Below, one piece after another: positions 51,517 through 60,914 of a DNA stretch of 64,000 nt; the first letter of the stretch is position 1, and the number at the start of each line of letters is the position of its first letter. This DNA comes from a virus. A program made the position numbers and the translations under genes. The notes beneath the pieces are model-generated. The model worked only from the letters and a program-made list of their open reading frames with translations, had not been told where the DNA came from and did no database searches. Location: the IMG/VR virus record IMGVR_UViG_3300042868_005134, positions 303,636 through 367,635 of that record; one strand, 5' to 3'.

Positions 51517-52109
51517 TTTATTACCTCACAGAATGTGTTTTTTTTCGATATGCGTGAAAATTTAAAGTTGCTGTTAACATTCTAAAACTTTAACAGGATG
51601 ATCGTGCCAATTTGTTTAGTATTCTGGTCTGACCAATTACGGCACTCAGACCCTATCAACATTCATGTTGACTATTCACACTCGGCTTTCTGTAGTGAAC
51701 ACATAGTATGTCTTTCCATACTGTCGTCTATTCCATCTGCGTACATGGTATTTCACATGTATAAACTTTTCAGTCCACCCTTACGGGGCACATTCTATAG
51801 CATTAAGCGTTAGTTTAAATTGCTGTAGTCATCCAAATATAACAGGATCGTTTTCTACTTTTTGTTTTTATCGAGGAGACTTATCGAAACTCCTCTATCT
51901 TCACTGTCCTTGCTTGCGCATTGTCTTTAACCTTCAAAGCCCCGAAAGGCTCCAGCTAATAACAGGGTAAGTGAAGCAATCCATAGTAATATGTAGTTGC
52001 TGTACCGATCCTAAAACTGTCCACAAGCATTATTGCTTGCTATGTGACTATTATAACAGTATTGCGCTGTCTTGTCACTACATTTTGGCTAAACTGCTAA
52101 AATATAAAT

Positions 52110-52186
52110 TGGTCGGAGTACAAGGATTCGAACCTTGGACCCCCTGGTCCCAAACCAGGTGCGCTACCAGACTGCGCTACACTCCG
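52110..52186 (-). tRNA. tRNA-Pro (UGG)
   Basis: It folds into a cloverleaf. The anticodon arm is CCTGG-TTTGGGA-CCAGG. It has the GGTTCGAATCC T-arm, a C1-G72 pair, A73, and an encoded CCA. Confidence 0.75.
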
Positions 52187-52355
52187 AATTAACTTGCTAC
52201 AATATGCGGTATATATGGAACTGCTCTTGGACCACCATACAGTTGCTCGAAAAGTTTTTTAGCCTCTTGCGGTGTATCCGCATAGATACGTTTCTTTTCT
52301 TCACCTTGAGGTGTTCTTACAGTTGCTTCATACATTGGCATATTGTATCCTTAAA

Positions 52356-52431
52356 TGGTACCTGGTGTCAGACTCGAACTGACATCGTTCTCCGTGTAAA
52401 GGAGATGCATAACCTCTCTGCGCAACCAGGC
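52356..52431 (-). tRNA. tRNA-Val (UAC)
   Basis: The acceptor stem is GCCTGGT/ACCAGGT. The anticodon loop is TTTACAC. CCA is encoded. Confidence 0.7.
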
Positions 52432-52440
52432 ATTAAATTT

Positions 52441-52514
52441 TGGAGCGGGATGGGAGAATCGAACTCCCGACATTAGATTGGAAATCTAAGGTAATGCCAT
52501 TTTACGAATCCCGC
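52441..52514 (-). tRNA. tRNA-Gly (UCC)
   Basis: The acceptor stem is GCGGGAT/ATCCCGC. The anticodon arm is TTAGA-TTTCCAA-TCTAA. Confidence 0.7.
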
Positions 52515-52977
52515 ACACTTTATAGGTGCTCTCTGTGGCGCTTGAATCCACGGCAGCCCTTCTCTTCATGGCCGGTCCTTGCTTTGGTCGACGTTGGCAA
52601 GTTTCTCGGTGTTCCATTGTAGCTACTCAGAAAGCACGTATAAAGTGTCCGGCTACTCACACCACATGAGCCCCGGACTGAGCAGTTACTCTGTCCATAA
52701 CATTTTCTTCTTCTGGAAAGGCTGTTAATCCTCACCCTAGGCAGTTTCCAGTATCCCTTAAATGGGGACTGTGAGGTCAGGTCCTAGTGTACCCTCTGGT
52801 CTATCGTTACAGAGACGCTATTTCGTTACGTAGAAATAGTAAGACGGGTTTTTAACAGGATAGGCTTTGCCTTATTTTTTATTTAAAACTTGACAAAGCG
52901 AACAAGTTCGTCCGGGTCGCCCCAGACCTTTGATACGGTTATTCACCGTTAGTGGTTTGCTGTCTCTATCCTAAAAC

Positions 52978-53052
52978 TGGTGCCCAATGTCTGATTCGAA
53001 CAGACGACCTACCGCTTACAAGGCGGTTGCTCTACCCCTGAGCCAATCGGGC
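52978..53052 (-). tRNA. tRNA-Thr (UGU)
   Basis: The acceptor stem is GCCCGAT/ATTGGGC. The anticodon loop is CTTGTAA. Confidence 0.7.
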
Positions 53053-53260
53053 TATATGTTACTTATTTGTTGCTGTCTGTATATTATAATTGATTTGACT
53101 TTGTTTGTCAAGTCTTTCAAATTCTTCATCTTCAAGTTTGGCTTCTTCTAGACGCCTAGGATCAGGCTTTCGAAAAATAGTATCATAATTCGAACCAAAT
53201 GCTTTCAAATCTGTTGGACGTTGTTTACTGCCCTTACTCATAATAAACTCCTACTATTCT

Positions 53261-53336
53261 TGGTGGAGGTGACAAGGATCGAACTTGCTACATCCTGCTT
53301 GCAAAGCAGGCGCTCTCCCAAATGAGCTACACCCCC
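53261..53336 (-). tRNA. tRNA-Ala (UGC)
   Basis: The acceptor stem is GGGGGTG. The anticodon arm is CCTGC-TTTGCAA-GCAGG. Confidence 0.75.
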
Positions 53337-53342
53337 AAATAT

Positions 53343-53418
53343 TGGCTCCACAGCCTGGGCTCGAACCAGGGACCAATTGATTAACAGTCAACTACTCTAC
53401 CAACTGAGCTACTGCGGA
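53343..53418 (-). tRNA. tRNA-Asn (GUU)
   Basis: The anticodon loop is CTGTTAA. It has a canonical D-arm (GCTCAGTTGGTAGAGT). Confidence 0.7.
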
Positions 53419-53667
53419 ATAATTCTTAAACTTGAGTACTTGCTGTACCCGTATCATTTGTTTGGTAATTTGCGGCACCCTGTGGACGCTTGTTATCTCG
53501 CGGTTCACGTTTTGGAACAATGGCAGCGGCTAATTCTGCTTGGATCATTGCTCTCTTAAATTCGTTACGCTCATGTGCGTCAACGATAGTACACATGAAT
53601 CTTTTTGACTGCTTACTGAGCTTGAATGTCTTGTTTGGTTTTAACATAATTACCTTTTTAAAAAACT

Positions 53668-53757
53668 TGGCGGAACGACTGAGACTCGAACTCAGAACCC
53701 GGATTACGCCGAGCGACAGATTAGCAATCTGCTCTAATACCATTATAGGACCGTTCC
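53668..53757 (-). tRNA. tRNA-Ser (GCU), class II
   Basis: It is 90 nt with a long variable arm. The anticodon arm is GCAGA-TTGCTAA-TCTGT. Confidence 0.7.
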
Positions 53758-53766
53758 ATATATACT

Positions 53767-53875
53767 ATGTAGCTGGGAGGCTTCGAACCTCCATGGAATC
53801 CTGGATTATATCCTGACCCGTCCCCTGACCTATGCTATGAGCATAGCGGGAGCTTTGCCTATTTGCTTACAGCTA
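53767..53875 (-). ncRNA. Oversized tRNA-like RNA (109 nt). It carries a CAU anticodon hairpin and a ~37-nt extra domain.
   Basis: It has a perfect acceptor stem (GTAGCTG/CAGCTAC), a 3-bp D-arm with GG, and a T-arm GGAGG-TTCGAAG-CCTCC. The anticodon-like hairpin is CTATG-CTCATAG-CATAG. An unusually long insert lies between it and the T-arm. Confidence 0.45.
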
Positions 53876-53916
53876 CACAGTAATTATACAATCTAGCTGT
53901 GAGTATGTCAAGTGTT

Positions 53917-53991
53917 TTGGCGGGTCTTGAGAGGATCGAACTCCCACCCTCGGTTTCGAAGACCGAGATGATATCCATTTCACCAAAGACC
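53917..53991 (-). tRNA. tRNA-Arg (UCG)
   Basis: The anticodon arm is TCGGT-CTTCGAA-ACCGA. The acceptor stem is GGGTCTT/AAGACCC. Confidence 0.7.
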
Positions 53992-53995
53992 CTAA

Positions 53996-59842: not shown

Positions 59843-59845
59843 ATA

Positions 59846-59921
59846 TGGTCCACAGCGTCAGATTCGAACTGACACCTCATCGGTTAAGAGCCGAGTACGC
59901 TACCGTTAACGCCAGCTGTGG
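59846..59921 (-). tRNA. tRNA-Lys (CUU)
   Basis: The anticodon loop is CTCTTAA. The acceptor stem is CCACAGC/GCTGTGG. The T-arm is GTCAG-TTCGAAT-CTGAC. Confidence 0.55.
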
Positions 59922-60150
59922 ATGGATCGTAAATATTTTCTTTTACGTGCCATCCAGGACCATACGGGATCCGGGATGACACTACAGTTTACCTGTACGT
60001 TTCATGTCATTCTCCTTTGTTGATATTTCTCTTTTGTGCTTGGCGTTCTGATTTCCAGAACACTCGTTTCCAATCTTTCAAATGCTTCCACCATTGTGGA
60101 GGCGCAGTTAGGTTACCTTTTTTGACATTTGCCATAGGATTTCCTTTATA

Positions 60151-60213
60151 AAACAGGATGCTTATTTTTCAATTAAAAGTTGAATTTTTGAATTTGCTGT
60201 TCGCATCCTAAAA
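60151..60213. repeat. Copy 2 of the tRNA-flanking hairpin repeat
   Basis: It reads AAACAGGATGC ... TTAAAAGTTGAATTTTTGAATTTGCTGTTCGCATCCTAAAA. Its stem is AGGATGC/GCATCCT. Confidence 0.55.
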
Positions 60214-60289
60214 TGGTACACCCTGTTGGAATCGAACCAACTTCAACGGCTCTTCAGACCGCCGCTATGACCACATCAGCTAAAGGTGC
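60214..60289 (-). tRNA. tRNA-Phe (GAA)
   Basis: The anticodon arm is GCGGT-CTGAAGA-GCCGT. The T-arm is GTTGG-TTCGATT-CCAAC. Confidence 0.65.
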
Positions 60290-60297
60290 ATTATACT

Positions 60298-60373
60298 TGG
60301 TCTCCCTACCAGGATTCGAACCTGGACCACACGGCCCCAAACCGTGTACGCAACCTGATAACGCTTTAGAGAG
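60298..60373 (-). tRNA. tRNA-Pro (UGG) (second copy)
   Basis: It has a C1-G72 pair. The anticodon arm is CACGG-TTTGGGG-CCGTG. The T-arm is CCAGG-TTCGAAT-CCTGG. Confidence 0.65.
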
Positions 60374-60380
60374 ATAAAAT

Positions 60381-60455
60381 TGGTGGAGGCCGAGGGAATC
60401 GAACCCTTCTAGTCACGATGCTTGCAAGGCAACGCCGTAGCCCACTACTGCCCCC
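60381..60455 (-). tRNA. tRNA with anticodon UGC (Ala-type). The D-arm is atypical.
   Basis: The acceptor stem is GGGGGCA. The anticodon arm is GTTGC-CTTGCAA-GCATC. The D-arm is very short. Confidence 0.45.
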
Positions 60456-60524
60456 AATTACAAAGCATACTATTCTAACTCGTCAAAAGAGTCTGCGTTA
60501 TACGTCTTTAGTATACTTTGTAAT

Positions 60525-60602
60525 TGGCTGTCCGACTAGGGATCGAACCTAGCTCATTCTTCGTTAACAGCGAAGCGCCTACACCATGCTTGCTCTCGGA
60601 CA
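60525..60602 (-). tRNA. tRNA-Asn (GUU) (second copy)
   Basis: The anticodon arm is CTTCG-CTGTTAA-CGAAG. The acceptor stem is TGTCCGA/TCGGACA. Confidence 0.6.
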
Positions 60603-60609
60603 ATAAAAT

Positions 60610-60685
60610 TGGCGCCATGGACGGGACTCGAACCCGCCTGGTACGGATAGACAATCCGCTGCCCTACCCCGAGGACTACCATGGC
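60610..60685 (-). tRNA. tRNA-Asp (GUC) (second copy)
   Basis: It has a perfect acceptor stem (GCCATGG/CCATGGC). The anticodon arm is GCGGA-TTGTCTA-TCCGT. Confidence 0.65.
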
Positions 60686-60689
60686 ATGT

Positions 60690-60764
60690 TGGTATCGCGT
60701 ACGGGGATCGAACCCGCCTGAGTAAGTTGAAAGCCTACGGACCTCACCAGAAGTCAAACGCGAT
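60690..60764 (-). tRNA. tRNA-Glu (UUC) (second copy)
   Basis: The anticodon arm is GTAGG-CTTTCAA-CTTAC. The acceptor stem is ATCGCGT/ACGCGAT. Confidence 0.6.
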
Positions 60765-60770
60765 GTAATA

Positions 60771-60826
60771 AAACAGGATAGCATCTTTTTTCCATTAAAA
60801 GTGAAATTAGAATTTTTGCTGTTGCT
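60771..60826. repeat. Copy 3 of the tRNA-flanking hairpin repeat
   Basis: It reads AAACAGGATAGCA ... TTAAAAGTGAAATTAGAATTTTTGCTGTTGCTATCCTAAAA. Confidence 0.55.
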
Positions 60827-60914
60827 ATCCTAAAATTGGTGGAGGCTGATGGAATCGAACCACTTGACAGCCACCCTGCTTAATATGTCTACCGGGTTAC
60901 AGCCGGCAACAGGG
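60827..60914 (-). tRNA. Class-II-length tRNA-like gene (88 nt). It contains a GUA (Tyr-type) hairpin, but the fold is non-canonical.
   Basis: The acceptor stem is GGAGGTT/AGCCTCC and the T-loop is TTCGATT. There is a hairpin GCCGG-CTGTAAC-CCGGT. The D-region and variable region do not fit the standard model. Confidence 0.35.

What the first reader, a model, noticed from the sequence alone, without database searches (positions are those of the whole stretch)
51950..60914. Very large two-block tRNA array covering all 20 amino acids plus an initiator-like tRNA
About 45 cloverleaf-foldable tRNA genes and about 6 aberrant tRNA-like elements are packed on the minus strand in two blocks, at 52.1–55.5 kb and 57.8–60.9 kb. 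The set contains at least one tRNA for every amino acid. It also contains an fMet-like tRNA with a C1-A72 mismatch and a CUCAUAA loop. Several isoacceptors (Pro, Ala, Asn, Asp, Glu, Ser-GCU, Tyr, Ile) appear once in each block. This suggests an ancient block duplication or two acquisition events. Most genes encode CCA, and spacers are often only 1–8 nt.
Basis: seen in the sequence. Interest (0 to 1): 0.6.

Follow-up and report, generated by a model that had tools for sequence, protein, structure and literature searches.

The report
Phage tRNA array with tRNA-mimic spacers
This stretch of a large phage genome really does carry about 41 transfer-RNA genes for all 20 amino acids, which is an ordinary feature of big phages, but the gaps between them hold a conserved and apparently undescribed family of small RNAs that imitate pieces of tRNA and are tied to a neighbouring Ro-like RNA-binding-protein gene.

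Summary
ARAGORN finds 38 tRNA genes (41 with relaxed settings), all on the minus strand between 52110 and 60764. Shuffled sequence and the other 55 kb of the window give none. The Rfam tRNA model passes 35. All 20 amino acids and 31 anticodons are covered, 40 of 41 genes encode CCA, and spacers inside sub-clusters are 1-12 nt.

The block-duplication idea is not supported. Same-anticodon pairs are 52-69% identical, against a background of 56±4.5%. In a close relative the two "blocks" are contiguous, so this is one array split by a 2.2-kb radical-SAM/nitroreductase cassette.

Related arrays occur in many metagenomic phage contigs (up to 345 kb).

The most likely role is an early-transcribed tRNA supply that frees phage translation from the host tRNA pool. 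It sits next to a Ro-like gene and RNA-repair-type enzymes.

Additional findings:
- Conserved irregular tRNAs pair with canonical ones.
- A class-II tRNA(UAU) has an invariant variable-arm loop.
- Four tRNA-Leu lack the long arm.
- Nine copies of a covarying helix + CAGCAA module sit on anticodon-stem-loop mimics, on a YrlA-like RNA, on a tRNA-like RNA, and in the leader of the Ro-like gene.

The array is a known kind of feature. The module family looks new, and its function is only inferred.

The parts
61611..61825 (-). Three tandem sigma-70-type promoters upstream of the array (61825-61797, 61739-61711, 61639-61611)
   Evidence: They match the consensus at 11, 11 and 12 of 12 positions, each with a 17-nt spacer. 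The sequence was read.
60837..60924 (-). Irregular Tyr-like tRNA. It has anticodon loop CUGUAAC, an 8-9-bp acceptor stem, a 4-bp T stem, no D arm, a long two-part anticodon arm and an encoded CCA.
   Evidence: Rfam gives a tRNA-Sec-like score of 26.3 bits. RNAalifold on 6 homologs finds 13 of 25 pairs with compensatory changes.
60772..60831 (-). Module RNA, short form: closing stem AGGATAGC/GCTATCCT, then CAGCAA, with an apical anticodon-stem-loop mimic (loop CUUUUAA, Lys-UUU type)
60690..60764 (-). Irregular tRNA-Glu(UUC) with a Sec-type D arm (6-bp stem, 4-nt loop), A1-U72, and encoded CCA
   Evidence: Found by relaxed ARAGORN. Rfam gives a Sec-like score of 37.1 bits. Seven full-length homologs are 75-86% identical (of 10 loci hit), with anticodon-stem changes read by eye.
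60610..60685 (-). tRNA-Asp(GUC), block-B copy
   Evidence: 42.1 bits
60525..60602 (-). tRNA-Asn(GUU), irregular block-B copy (78 nt)
   Evidence: Called by ARAGORN at default settings. No Rfam hit at E<=1.
60456..60524 (-). Hairpin spacer (ATTACAAAG...CTTTGTAAT)
   Evidence: Read. No homolog in the fetched loci.
60381..60455 (-). Irregular tRNA-Ala(UGC): G3·U70 kept, 4-bp T stem, 4-bp D stem with a 4-nt loop, 7-bp anticodon stem
   Evidence: Sec-like, 24.3 bits. RNAalifold on 8 homologs finds 10 of 21 pairs compensatory.
60214..60373 (-). tRNA-Pro(UGG) 60298-60373 and tRNA-Phe(GAA) 60214-60289
60152..60209 (-). Module RNA, short form, with anticodon-stem-loop mimic TTCAA-CUUUUAA-TTGAA (Lys-UUU type)
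60007..60135 (-). Small ORF, 42 aa, conserved
   Evidence: tblastn gives 74-100% identity in 3 loci. No Pfam hit.
59438..59921 (-). tRNA-Lys(CUU) 59846-59921, Lys(UUU) 59768-59842, hairpin spacer 59673-59767, Met(CAU) 59598-59672, Arg(ACG) 59518-59592 and Thr(UGU) 59438-59512
59340..59431 (-). tRNA-Ser(UGA), class II, G73, encoded CCA
   Evidence: Found by relaxed ARAGORN, with its ends corrected by eye. Rfam gives a Sec-like score of 35.4 bits.
59178..59339 (-). Conserved non-coding stretch of unknown nature
   Evidence: 73-85% identical in 7 loci
59088..59177 (-). tRNA-Ser(GCU), block-B copy
59020..59083 (-). Module RNA, short form, with anticodon-stem-loop mimic CTTTT-CUGUAAA-AAAAG (Tyr-GUA type)
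58524..59013 (-). tRNA-Ile(GAU) 58940-59013, His(GUG) 58855-58927 (no encoded CCA), Ile(GAU) 58768-58842, Val(GAC) 58692-58766, Leu(UAG) 58604-58680 and Leu(CAA) 58524-58600. Both Leu genes are 77 nt, without the long variable arm.
58347..58523 (-). Conserved non-coding stretch
   Evidence: 66-82% identical in 5 loci
58270..58346 (-). tRNA-Leu(UAA), 77 nt, short variable loop
58145..58264 (-). tRNA-like RNA. It has an acceptor stem with CCA, a D arm and a T arm. The anticodon arm is replaced by hairpin ATCCTG-UUA-AGGAT followed by CAGCA, which is the module in circularly permuted form.
   Evidence: RNAalifold on 7 homologs finds 12 of 25 pairs compensatory. One homolog lies right after the Ro-like gene of Synechococcus phage BUCT-ZZ01 (L117:13581-13696).
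58018..58139 (-). YrlA-like RNA: module closing stem, V-like hairpin, T arm GTTGG-TTCGATT-CCAAC, closed hairpin, and D arm GCTC-AGCGGTT-GAGC
   Evidence: RNAalifold on 7 homologs. In a 301-nt search the best Rfam family was YrlA RF02553, at 20.8 bits and E 0.04. This is below its gathering score of 69.
57777..58010 (-). tRNA-Gln(UUG) 57935-58010, Arg(UCU) 57853-57927 and Thr(GGU) 57777-57850
55626..57743 (-). Inserted cassette that splits the array: nitroreductase-family ORF 57078-57743 (221 aa) and B12-type radical SAM ORF 55626-57044 (472 aa)
   Evidence: Pfam and NCBIfam hits. The cassette is absent at this position in relative L077.
55585..55613 (-). Perfect sigma-70 consensus promoter in front of block A
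   Evidence: 12 of 12 matches
54904..55531 (-). tRNA-Glu(UUC) 55456-55531, hairpin spacer 55385-55455, Tyr(GUA) 55300-55384 (class II), Cys(GCA) 55216-55293, Asp(GUC) 55132-55208, conserved non-coding stretch 54978-55131 and Trp(CCA) 54904-54977
54653..54883 (-). Small ORF (76 aa) inside the array, a homolog of RNA polymerase omega/Rpb6
   Evidence: PF01192 at 40.4 bits, above its cut-off of 26. Homologs occur in 12 loci.
54569..54642 (-). Initiator-like irregular tRNA(CAU): C1·A72, discriminator U73, D arm of 4 bp with a 3-nt loop
   Evidence: Called by ARAGORN. Rfam gives only 21.9 bits. The 1:72 position is unpaired in the window and 3 relatives (C·A, C·A, A·A, U·U).
54405..54562 (-). tRNA-Leu(UAG) 54486-54562 (77 nt, short variable loop) and Gly(GCC) 54405-54478
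54172..54404 (-). Conserved non-coding stretch with a T-arm-like hairpin (TGGGTTCGACTCCCA)
   Evidence: 73-83% identical in 11 loci
54080..54171 (-). Class-II tRNA with anticodon UAU: long variable arm with loop CAGAUUA, A73, G1·U72, compact D arm, 6-bp anticodon stem, encoded CCA
   Evidence: Sec-like, 32.9 bits. All 18 UAU tRNAs in related loci, plus that of phage S-SRM01, are long. The variable-arm stem covaries and the loop bases AGAU are invariant.
53918..54071 (-). tRNA-Arg(CCU) 53997-54071 and Arg(UCG) 53918-53992
53767..53911 (-). Perfect sigma-70 promoter 53911-53883, followed by a tRNA-like element 53767-53877. The element has acceptor-like stem GTAGCTG/CAGCTAC and T arm GGAGG-TTCGAAG-CCTCC, with no CCA and no anticodon arm.
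   Evidence: Homologs in 3 loci have compensatory acceptor changes.
53261..53757 (-). tRNA-Ser(GCU) 53668-53757, small ORF 53426-53647 (73 aa, conserved in 11 loci), tRNA-Asn(GUU) 53343-53418 and Ala(UGC) 53261-53336
52978..53241 (-). Small ORF 53059-53241 (60 aa) containing a perfect sigma-70 promoter (53111-53083), then tRNA-Thr(UGU) 52978-53052
52854..52972 (-). Module RNA, 119 nt (AGGATAG...CTATCCTGTT) with a structured insert
52515..52853 (-). Conserved non-coding stretch. It appears as two separable parts in relatives.
   Evidence: Hits in 19 loci, up to 87-92% identity. No Rfam hit at E<=10.
52110..52514 (-). tRNA-Gly(UCC) 52441-52514, Val(UAC) 52356-52431, small ORF 52189-52341 (50 aa) and tRNA-Pro(UGG) 52110-52186
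51530..52078 (-). Promoter 52078-52050, then three module RNAs: 51840-52012 (~170 nt), 51591-51835 (~245 nt), and leader copy 51530-51583 (AGAATGT...ACATTCT), which ends 13 nt before the ATG of the Ro-like gene
   Evidence: The two long RNAs are conserved in 27 and 16 loci. The leader copy is present in 31 of 42 distinct upstream regions, against 1.8% in shuffles.
50101..51516 (-). DUF2828+DUF7788 protein (471 aa). Homologs in mycobacteriophages are annotated 'Ro-like RNA binding protein'.
   Evidence: Pfam and PHROG 850. 706 phage records hold a homolog. The gene is present in 41 of 116 loci fetched with the module pattern.
45616..49967 (-). Neighbouring RNA-repair-type genes: AAA ATPase 48867-49967, dual-specificity phosphatase 47335-47802, metallophosphoesterase 46086-46688 and AAA_33 kinase 45616-46077
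   Evidence: Pfam and PHROG hits. The same set follows the Ro-like gene in relatives.

Best explanation
The region is one long tRNA gene array of a large (jumbo-size) phage. It is transcribed early by the host sigma-70 RNA polymerase from several near-consensus promoters, as polycistronic precursors that are cut into about 41 tRNAs.

The set has 31 anticodons and covers all 20 amino acids. It includes a dedicated AUA reader and an initiator-like tRNA. Under ordinary wobble rules it can read almost every sense codon. Its most likely job is therefore to make phage translation largely independent of the host tRNA pool. It would do this in two ways: by supplying codons the phage uses heavily (AUA is 28% of Ile codons), and by replacing host tRNAs that are depleted or cleaved during infection.

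The array is a mosaic of short tRNA sub-clusters, small ORFs and structured non-coding RNAs. The "two blocks" come from insertion of a radical-SAM/nitroreductase cassette.

The array lies beside a DUF2828 'Ro-like' gene and kinase, phosphatase and phosphoesterase genes. It is interleaved with RNAs that share one helix + CAGCAA module and display tRNA parts. I read these as Y-RNA-like partners of the Ro-like protein that work in tRNA surveillance, repair or counter-defence.

**Shown:** gene content, folds, conservation, covariation, promoter matches and linkage.
**Inferred:** expression, charging, protein binding and the counter-defence role.
For: - **The tRNAs are real.** ARAGORN finds 38 or 41 genes and Rfam passes 35 above its gathering score. 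Shuffles give 0.
- **Decoding is nearly complete.** The 31 anticodons leave only 8 fourfold-box codons without a direct reader. AUA accounts for 282 of 1018 Ile codons, read by the UAU tRNA.
- **Promoters.** Seven minus-strand promoters match the sigma-70 consensus at 11-12 of 12 positions with 17-nt spacers.
- **The array is conserved.**
  - Block A is syntenic up to the Ro-like gene in a 278-kb contig.
  - The Ro-like protein is 86-96% identical in the 120 best metagenome proteins listed, on contigs up to 345 kb.
  - Of 116 viral loci carrying the spacer motif, 66 have at least 5 tRNAs, with up to 38 in 14 kb.
- **One array, not two.** L077 lacks the cassette.
- **The irregular tRNAs are maintained.** Their homologs show compensatory changes.
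- **Repair-type neighbours** are present.
- **The module is structured.**
  - Two stem positions are 98-100% paired, each with 4 pair types, across 83 distinct copies.
  - The covariation score is 0.337 against 0.106 in shuffles (0 of 500 shuffles reach it).
- **The module is linked to the Ro-like gene**.
- **Published precedent.** Phage tRNAs rescue infection from tRNA-cleaving defences (PMC10264068, PMC11464382, PMC11555353, PMC12409363).
Against: - There are no expression, processing or charging data.
- The host is unknown, so codon compensation cannot be measured.
- Six tRNAs fall below the Rfam tRNA threshold and may not work in translation.
- The Ro60 fold of the DUF2828 protein was not demonstrated here. 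PDB profile searches reach only E 0.07-0.2, on the vWA stretch, and the AlphaFold model has pLDDT 45.
- No RNA ligase was identified next to the repair-type genes. The one ligase in the window, 28805-30127, looks like a DNA ligase.
Confidence: 0.72

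Rival explanations
1. Block duplication: block B is an old copy of block A (or the reverse), and the duplicated isoacceptors are what remains of that copy.
For: Eleven anticodons occur twice. Five of the duplicates (Glu, Asp, Asn, Ala, Pro) are clustered at the 5' end of block B.
Against: - The pairs are 52-69% identical, against a 56±4.5% background.
- Gene order is not collinear between the blocks.
- The B copies have different architectures: a 4-bp T stem, a Sec-type D arm or no D arm.
- The blocks are contiguous in L077.
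Confidence: 0.1
2. Decay: the low-scoring tRNAs and tRNA-like elements are pseudogenes and debris from a shuffled array, with no function.
For: Six ARAGORN calls fall below the Rfam tRNA threshold. Gene order is strongly shuffled between relatives.
Against: - The same irregular forms recur in 4-10 loci at 71-99% identity, with pairs kept through compensatory changes: 13 of 25, 10 of 21 and 12 of 25 pairs.
- CCA ends are retained.
- G3·U70 is invariant in the irregular Ala tRNA.
Confidence: 0.1
3. The helix + CAGCAA elements are only processing or punctuation hairpins (RNase III or RNase E sites) of the polycistronic tRNA transcript, and are not protein-partnered RNAs.
For: They begin 4-5 nt after a CCA end and stop just before the next tRNA. 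All copies have the orientation of transcription.
Against: - The same module occurs circularly permuted, as an apical hairpin inside a tRNA-like RNA.
- It closes a YrlA-like RNA.
- It sits 11-30 nt before the start codon of the Ro-like gene in 31 of 42 lineages, with different but compensating stem sequences.
- The single-stranded CAGCAA is conserved.
- The inserts carry anticodon-loop-like hairpins in 54 of 85 short copies, against 8.5% in shuffles.
Confidence: 0.2
4. The elements act at the DNA level as attC-like folded single-strand recombination sites or MITE-like repeats that shuffle tRNA cassettes.
For: - The architecture resembles integron attC sites as I know them: a 7-bp stem, a variable insert of 35-230 nt, and GTT after the 3' arm.
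- Array order is heavily rearranged between relatives.
Against: - No integrase was seen among the ORFs examined near the array. This was not searched exhaustively.
- The inserts mimic tRNA parts.
- One copy is fixed in a 5' UTR.
- All 9 window copies are on the transcribed strand.
Confidence: 0.08
5. The array serves codon-usage compensation only and has nothing to do with host defences or tRNA damage.
For: The phage is AT-leaning (41% GC). It prefers A/U-ending codons and uses AUA heavily.
Against: - A near-complete set that includes tRNAs for common codons is more than compensation needs.
- The array is linked to the Ro-like gene and to kinase, phosphatase and phosphoesterase genes.
- The phage tRNA-Lys(UUU) has UAACCG at positions 36-41. 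The PARIS nuclease requires U39 and A41 there (PMC12409363).
Confidence: 0.2

Closest known systems
Large tRNA gene clusters of big lytic phages. Examples are T5 with 24 tRNAs (PMC12409363), Shigella phage Sf14 with 26 (PMC12482277), and, from my own knowledge, KVP40-like, mycobacteriophage cluster C and 'huge phage' arrays of 30-67.
   Same: Dozens of same-strand tRNA genes with very short spacers are interspersed with small ORFs and sit in an early region. In Sf14 the DUF2828 gene also lies directly beside the array.
   Different: With 41 genes for all 20 amino acids, this array is at the upper end. It contains paired canonical and irregular copies and the module RNAs, which Sf14 lacks.
Phage tRNAs as counter-defence against tRNA-cleaving systems such as PrrC, PARIS AriB and retron PtuAB (PMC10264068, PMC11464382, PMC11555353, PMC12409363)
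   Same: Full-length phage tRNAs carry substitutions at the nuclease recognition positions. The window's Lys-UUU has UAACCG where AriB needs UAAUC|A.
   Different: No defence system or host is known for this phage. The separate stem-loop mimics have no described counterpart in those studies.
Ro60 with Y RNAs, in particular bacterial and phage YrlA (RF02553; PMC4201824) and the Thermus phage φRo60-Yrl complex (PMC12135203)
   Same: - Non-coding RNAs are encoded next to a Ro-like gene.
- One RNA (58018-58139) has the YrlA arrangement: an end-to-end stem enclosing a T arm, a closed hairpin and a D arm.
- A shared stem serves as the presumed protein site.
   Different: - The score against YrlA is only 20.8 bits, against a gathering score of 69.
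- The stem motif (AGGATNN/NNATCCT + CAGCAA) is not the described Ro site.
- There are nine copies, with interchangeable heads that include bare anticodon-stem-loop mimics.
- The protein is DUF2828, with no detectable TROVE match.
Irregular tRNAs, both allo-tRNAs and (8/4) tRNAs, reported in bacteria and in phage tRNA clusters (PMC5389517)
   Same: They have longer acceptor and shorter T stems, Sec-like D arms, and occur as polycistrons together with normal tRNAs.
   Different: The irregular species here are Ala, Glu, a Tyr-like RNA, Met and UAU. In the paper they were Ser and His. The Tyr-like RNA lacks a D arm altogether.
nev-tRNAs of nematodes: class-II tRNAs with the UAU (Ile) or CCC (Gly) anticodon that are charged with leucine (PMC3333845)
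   Same: A long variable arm is combined with anticodon UAU and an A73 discriminator.
   Different: The phage tRNA has an invariant variable-loop sequence (N-AGAU-N-A) and comes from an unrelated lineage. Its charging is unknown, and high AUA usage argues for faithful Ile decoding.

Membership tests
tRNA (Rfam RF00005) | Covariance-model score at or above the gathering score of 29 bits | tested here: met
   35 genes score 36-68 bits. Six ARAGORN calls do not reach the threshold: X-UAU, Met_A, Ala_B, Asn_B, Ser-UGA and Glu_B.
tRNA (Rfam RF00005) | Cloverleaf kept through compensatory changes in homologs (tested for the low-scoring members) | tested here: met
   - UAU family: acceptor and T stems are 100% paired, and 15 of 17 pairs have changes on both sides.
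- Ala_B: 10 of 21 pairs are compensatory.
- Tyr-like: 13 of 25 pairs are compensatory, but there is no D arm.
Phage tRNA array | Many same-strand tRNA genes in a viral genome context | tested here: met
   - 41 genes lie in 8.7 kb on one strand.
- PHROG families are present in the window.
- Homologous arrays occur in IMG/VR viral contigs.
- Shared elements occur in two cultured cyanomyoviruses.
Bacterial initiator tRNA | Unpaired 1:72 position | tested here: met
   C1·A72 in the window, and C·A, A·A and U·U in three relatives.
Bacterial initiator tRNA | Three consecutive G-C pairs at the bottom of the anticodon stem, and an A73 discriminator | tested here: not met
   The stem reads CCGGU/GCCAGG, with two G-C pairs, a U·G pair and a bulge. 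The discriminator is U. Rfam gives only 21.9 bits.
YrlA Y RNA (RF02553) | Score at or above the gathering score of 69 bits | tested here: not met
   20.8 bits, E 0.04 in a 301-nt search, matching model positions 30-81 of 114.
YrlA Y RNA (RF02553) | End-to-end stem enclosing a permuted tRNA-like core (T arm, closed acceptor-like hairpin, D arm), encoded near a Ro ortholog | tested here: met
   Consensus fold of 7 homologs. The element lies about 6.5 kb from the Ro-like gene, and further module RNAs lie directly upstream of that gene.
Ro60 / TROVE protein | HEAT-repeat ring (TROVE domain) followed by a vWA domain | tested here: inconclusive
   - Pfam finds DUF2828 + DUF7788 only. VWA_2 appears weakly in 9 of 12 members, best E 7e-4.
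- PDB profile searches hit the phage TROVE protein only at E 0.07-0.2, on the MIDAS stretch.
- The AF2 model has pLDDT 45, with an all-helical N-terminal part and an alpha/beta C-terminal part.
- The 'Ro-like' label comes from annotators of mycobacteriophage records and from HHpred results reported for a Listeria phage protein that the paper names CKA15_055 (PMC12282133); I did not check that this protein belongs to the DUF2828 family.
allo-tRNA / (8/4) tRNA (PMC5389517) | A 12-bp acceptor/T branch split 8/4 or 9/3 | tested here: inconclusive
   - The Tyr-like RNA folds as 9 + 4 bp, or as 8 + 4 with A73.
- Ala_B folds as 6 paired + A·G + a 4-bp T stem.
- The exact 5' end, set by RNase P cleavage, is unknown.
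allo-tRNA / (8/4) tRNA (PMC5389517) | Long variable arm and serine identity (G73) | tested here: not met
   The Tyr-like RNA and Ala_B have no long variable arm and carry A73.
Class-II tRNA | Base-paired long variable arm | tested here: met
   In the UAU tRNA, the three top pairs of the variable-arm stem are 100% paired across 19 sequences, with 3-4 pair types each.
Bacterial tRNA-Leu (class II) | Long variable arm | tested here: not met
   All four Leu genes are 77 nt with a short variable loop. In related loci 58 of 104 Leu tRNAs are short.

The most novel reading that the evidence does not exclude
The spacers are a previously undescribed, phage-specific family of Y-RNA-like non-coding RNAs. 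A common helix + CAGCAA module would be the binding site of the DUF2828 Ro-like protein, which also sits on its own mRNA leader. That module presents interchangeable tRNA parts: bare anticodon stem-loops of the Lys-UUU, Arg-UCU, Thr-UGU and Tyr-GUA types, a tRNA 'elbow', or a whole tRNA body. These parts would capture, decoy or guide repair against host tRNA-targeting nucleases.

Alongside this, the clade's class-II tRNA(UAU) would use its invariant variable-arm loop as an extra identity or modification handle for reading AUA.
Probability: 0.25. Interest if true: 0.85.

Novelty: new variant of a known kind. Interest (0 to 1): 0.52.

Why it matters
Large phage tRNA arrays are well known. Their purpose, whether codon supply or escape from tRNA-cleaving immunity, is under active debate. 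This locus places four things in one conserved unit:
- a near-complete tRNA set;
- paired canonical and irregular tRNAs;
- RNA-repair-type enzymes and a Ro-like protein;
- a family of RNAs that display isolated tRNA parts on a shared, strongly covarying module.

If the module is the Ro-like protein's binding site, DUF2828 proteins would gain a concrete RNA partner. Those proteins occur in more than 700 cultured phage genomes, many of them tRNA-rich. The idea that phages deploy tRNA mimics as well as tRNAs against anticodon nucleases would then be directly testable.

The class-II tRNA(UAU) was missed by tRNAscan-SE in the published genome of phage S-SRM01. That is a practical warning for annotation and a candidate for unusual AUA decoding.

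Tried and rejected
- **Close cultured relatives.** Megablast of the whole region against 50,697 phage records gave only single-tRNA hits. A blastn 'distant' search with the region upstream of the Ro-like gene gave nothing.
- **Syntenic loci through the radical SAM ORF.** Only one remote hit was found.
- **A Ro60 fold for DUF2828.** All of these failed or were not significant:
  - phmmer against PDB;
  - two profile searches against PDB;
  - a Pfam scan at E<=10;
  - AlphaFold2 on a 20-sequence alignment of 86-96% identity, giving pLDDT 45.
  I did not send that model to a fold search, because a low-confidence model gives meaningless matches.
- **Known RNA families in the gaps.** Rfam found nothing above threshold. 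The only lead was a weak YrlA hit.
- **The module in cellular genomes.** Of 120 sampled matches in the genome-contig collection, none lay in a tRNA array and only 7 had any matching 3' half. I judged these to be chance matches.
- **The module in coliphage Sf14.** It is absent there, although Sf14 has the DUF2828 gene beside its tRNA array.
- **Readings I rejected.**
  - A suppressor tRNA or recoding. The 'Pyl/CUA with intron' call from ARAGORN -i at 58145-58264 is the module-bearing tRNA-like RNA, and long ORFs read normally in code 11.
  - An intrinsic-terminator reading of the module. The stem is AT-rich and has a 35-230-nt insert.
  - GOLLD, ROOL or tmRNA. There are no Rfam hits for them.
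- **Host inference** from the canonical tRNAs was not attempted.

Full report

ARAGORN at default settings finds 38 tRNA genes in the 64-kb window. All are on the minus strand and all lie between 52110 and 60685: 17 in 52110-55531 and 21 in 57777-60685. Relaxing the score threshold adds three more, giving 41:
- Tyr-GTA at 55300-55384;
- Ser-TGA, with true ends 59340-59431;
- Glu-TTC, with true ends 60690-60764.

The Rfam tRNA covariance model passes its gathering score for 34 genes, and for a 35th under laxer filters. It gives sub-threshold tRNA or tRNA-Sec-like scores to six more. Thirty dinucleotide-preserving shuffles of the region give no tRNA at default settings and 0.07 per shuffle at relaxed settings.

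The set has 31 anticodons and covers all 20 amino acids. Forty of the 41 genes encode CCA. Spacers inside sub-clusters are 1-12 nt. Otherwise the description stands.

**2. What genome is it?**

- No cultured phage is close at the DNA level.
- The DUF2828/DUF7788 protein next to the array (50101-51516) has more than 120 metagenomic homologs at 86-96% identity. They sit on contigs up to 267-345 kb.
- A DNA motif from the spacers retrieves more than 116 IMG/VR viral contigs. Of these, 66 carry at least 5 tRNAs in the fetched stretch, with up to 38 in 14 kb.
- In a 278-kb contig the order of block A is conserved as far as the same protein gene.
- Individual elements are shared with two cultured freshwater cyanomyoviruses, S-SRM01 and BUCT-ZZ01.

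The array therefore belongs to a widespread clade of large phages. Its host is unknown.

**3. Two blocks, or a duplication?**

- Same-anticodon pairs across the blocks are 52-69% identical. All tRNA pairs together average 56% (sd 4.5).
- Only local duplications stand out: three Leu genes and two Gly genes.
- In relative L077 (Ro-like protein 87% identical), Thr-GGT is followed after 88 nt by Glu-TTC. The 2.2-kb gap in the window is therefore an inserted cassette, made of a B12-type radical SAM gene and a nitroreductase-family gene.
- Order is otherwise heavily shuffled between relatives.

The duplicated isoacceptors (Glu, Asp, Asn, Ala, Pro, Tyr) each consist of one canonical, high-scoring gene and one irregular gene:
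- Ala has a 4-bp T stem and a conserved G3·U70.
- Glu has a Sec-type 6-bp/4-nt D arm.
- The Tyr-like RNA has an 8-9-bp acceptor stem, a 4-bp T stem and no D arm.

The irregular forms recur in 4-10 loci with many compensatory changes. They are maintained, not decaying.

**4. Other unusual tRNAs**

*The AUA reader (54080-54171).* This is a class-II tRNA. It has a long variable arm, A73, G1·U72 and a compact D arm.
- All 18 UAU tRNAs in the related loci are of this type, as is an unannotated one in S-SRM01.
- The published tRNAscan-SE table for S-SRM01 lists 11 tRNAs and omits it (PMC8557907).
- The variable-arm stem covaries, and four loop bases (AGAU) are invariant.
- AUA makes up 28% of Ile codons, so this tRNA matters to the phage.
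- Whether it is charged with Ile or with Leu is open. Class-II tRNAs with the UAU anticodon in nematodes are charged with Leu (PMC3333845).

*The Leu tRNAs.* All four are 77 nt and lack the long arm. In relatives 58 of 104 Leu tRNAs are short.

*The initiator-like tRNA.* Position 1:72 is unpaired in the window and in three relatives. It lacks the canonical three G-C pairs and A73.

**5. The gaps are not empty**

Some gaps hold small conserved ORFs. One of these is an RNA polymerase omega/Rpb6 homolog.

Others hold nine copies of a single module on the transcribed strand: 5'-AGGATNN-NNN-CAGCAA ... N'N'ATCCT-GTT-3'.
- Across 83 distinct copies, the two variable stem positions are 100% and 98% paired, each with four pair types. 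The covariation score is 0.337, against 0.106 in shuffles, and 0 of 500 shuffles reach it.
- Short copies (51-65 nt) carry an apical 5-bp/7-nt hairpin in 54 of 85 cases, against 8.5% in shuffles.
- The loops are mostly C-U-NNN-A-A, that is anticodon loops. The commonest anticodon triplets are UUU, UCU, UGU, GCU and GUA.
- One long copy (58018-58139) has the YrlA arrangement of T arm, closed hairpin and D arm. YrlA is its best, though sub-threshold, Rfam match.
- The adjacent RNA (58145-58264) is a tRNA body with CCA. Its anticodon arm is replaced by the same module, circularly permuted. A homolog of it lies just after the Ro-like gene of phage BUCT-ZZ01.

**6. Link to the Ro-like gene**

- The DUF2828 gene is present in 41 of 116 motif-bearing loci, even though the flanks fetched were short.
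- Two long module RNAs directly precede the gene and are conserved in 27 and 16 loci.
- A module copy ends 11-30 nt before its start codon in 31 of 42 distinct upstream regions, against 1.8% in shuffles. The stem sequence differs between clades and is compensated each time; CAGCAA (or CCGCAA) is kept.
- In bacterial and archaeal genomes the motif occurs only at chance level and never in tRNA arrays.

I infer that the module is the binding site of this protein. I also infer that the leader copy is autoregulatory or is a co-transcribed RNA partner.

The protein is labelled 'Ro-like RNA binding protein' in mycobacteriophage records. HHpred results reported for a Listeria phage protein, CKA15_055, point to Rsr (PMC12282133), but I did not check that it belongs to this family. 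My own tests of a Ro60 fold were inconclusive.

Downstream of the gene lie an AAA ATPase, a dual-specificity phosphatase, a metallophosphoesterase and an AAA_33 kinase, both here and in relatives. This is an RNA-end-healing type of gene set. No RNA ligase was seen.

**7. How it most likely works**

Seven near-perfect sigma-70 promoters on the minus strand are spread along the array: three tandem ones at its head, one after the cassette and three internal. They indicate early transcription by the host polymerase into polycistronic precursors.

The tRNAs give the phage a nearly self-sufficient decoding set. Only eight fourfold-box codons lack a direct reader. That would cover both codon demand and loss of host tRNAs.

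Published work shows that phage tRNAs neutralise tRNA-cleaving defences (PMC10264068, PMC11464382, PMC11555353, PMC12409363).
- The window's tRNA-Lys(UUU) has UAACCG at positions 36-41, where the PARIS nuclease needs UAAUC|A.
- All 30 stem-loop mimics with U36 keep UAAU.

That contrast fits a decoy or capture role for the mimics, but it is circumstantial. The copies are related to one another and AT-rich.

Three rival readings of the module remain possible at lower weight:
- processing hairpins;
- attC-like recombination sites;
- remnants of tRNA genes.

**8. Verdict**

The finding as stated is correct in observation, and it is a known kind of thing: a new member of the large phage tRNA arrays. 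The block-duplication reading is not supported.

What raises its value is the conserved company the tRNAs keep:
- irregular twin tRNAs;
- a class-II tRNA(UAU);
- short-arm Leu tRNAs;
- a covarying module family that displays tRNA parts and marks the leader of a Ro-like gene.

I found no Rfam family and no paper that describes this module.

Noticed in passing
window 60772-60831, 60152-60209, 59020-59083, 58018-58139, 52854-52972, 51840-52012, 51591-51835, 51530-51583 (all minus strand); permuted copy inside 58145-58264: This is a repeated RNA module, AGGATNN-NNN-CAGCAA...N'N'ATCCT-GTT, with a strongly covarying stem. It is found only in and next to the tRNA array. The same motif occurs in more than 116 viral contigs, most of which carry tRNA arrays, and only at chance level in cellular genomes.
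   Followed up: yes
window 51530-51583, and the equivalent position in 31 of 42 related loci including L117 (Synechococcus phage BUCT-ZZ01): A copy of the module ends 11-30 nt before the start codon of the DUF2828 'Ro-like' gene. The stem sequences differ between clades and are compensated each time. It is a candidate binding or autoregulatory site.
   Followed up: yes
window 60772-60831, 60152-60209, 59020-59083; 54 of 85 short copies in related loci: Short module RNAs carry a 5-bp/7-nt hairpin whose loop matches real anticodon loops: CUUUUAA for Lys, CUGUAAA for Tyr, and in relatives CUUCUAA for Arg and CUUGUAA for Thr. All 30 with U36 keep U39. Most full-length phage tRNA-Lys(UUU) genes have C39 instead.
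   Followed up: partly
window 54080-54171; L119:12000-12089 (phage S-SRM01, record positions 32943-33032): The UAU-anticodon tRNA always has a long variable arm with the invariant loop N-AGAU-N-A. In this window the loop is CAGAUUA, close to the anticodon loop of tRNA-Ile(GAU). It is unannotated in the S-SRM01 RefSeq record and absent from that phage's published tRNA list.
   Followed up: partly
window 54486-54562, 58270-58346, 58524-58600, 58604-58680: All four tRNA-Leu genes are 77 nt and lack the long variable arm that bacterial tRNA-Leu normally has. About half of the Leu tRNAs in related phage contigs are the same, and S-SRM01 lists a 73-nt Leu-UAA.
   Followed up: partly
window 54653-54883 (-): A 76-aa ORF in the middle of the tRNA array is a homolog of RNA polymerase subunit omega/Rpb6 (PF01192, 40.4 bits). 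It is conserved in at least 12 related loci.
   Followed up: partly
window 45616-49967 (-): Just beyond the Ro-like gene lie an AAA ATPase, a dual-specificity phosphatase, a metallophosphoesterase and an AAA_33 kinase. The same genes follow it in relatives. This is an RNA-end-healing type of gene set without an obvious RNA ligase.
   Followed up: partly
window 52515-52853, 54172-54404, 54978-55131, 58347-58523, 59178-59339: These non-coding stretches inside the array are conserved at 66-92% identity in 2 to 19 related loci. One contains a T-arm-like hairpin. None matches an Rfam family.
   Followed up: no
window 53767-53877 (-): This tRNA-like element lies directly after a perfect sigma-70 promoter. 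It has an acceptor-like stem and a T arm, but no anticodon arm and no CCA. It is conserved in 3 loci, with compensatory changes in the acceptor stem.
   Followed up: no
window 55385-55455 and 59673-59767; 60456-60524: A second kind of spacer: long AT-rich hairpins that share the ends TATARAAAYACATTAG...TAGTGTGTTTCTATAT. A third, unrelated hairpin is also present. Homologs in the fetched loci were few or none.
   Followed up: no
window 61895-63573 (-): Upstream of the array lie a second radical SAM gene (STM4011/viperin/QueE-like, all below cut-off) and a glutamine amidotransferase. The latter is closest to gamma-glutamyl-CDP-amidate hydrolase, also below cut-off.
   Followed up: no
window 1614-20766 (-): Four consecutive very large ORFs (1296, 1065, 1412 and 2588 aa). 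The two tested had no PHROG match.
   Followed up: no
window 58855-58927 (-): tRNA-His is the only gene of the array without an encoded CCA; it ends ...ACCCC. It has the extra 5' G(-1) opposite C73.
   Followed up: no
L244 (Shigella phage Sf14, record positions 12570-15484): In this cultured coliphage the DUF2828 gene lies directly upstream of its tRNA array (Pro, Glu, Met, Asn, Tyr, Asp, Lys, Met ...). The helix + CAGCAA module is absent there.
   Followed up: partly
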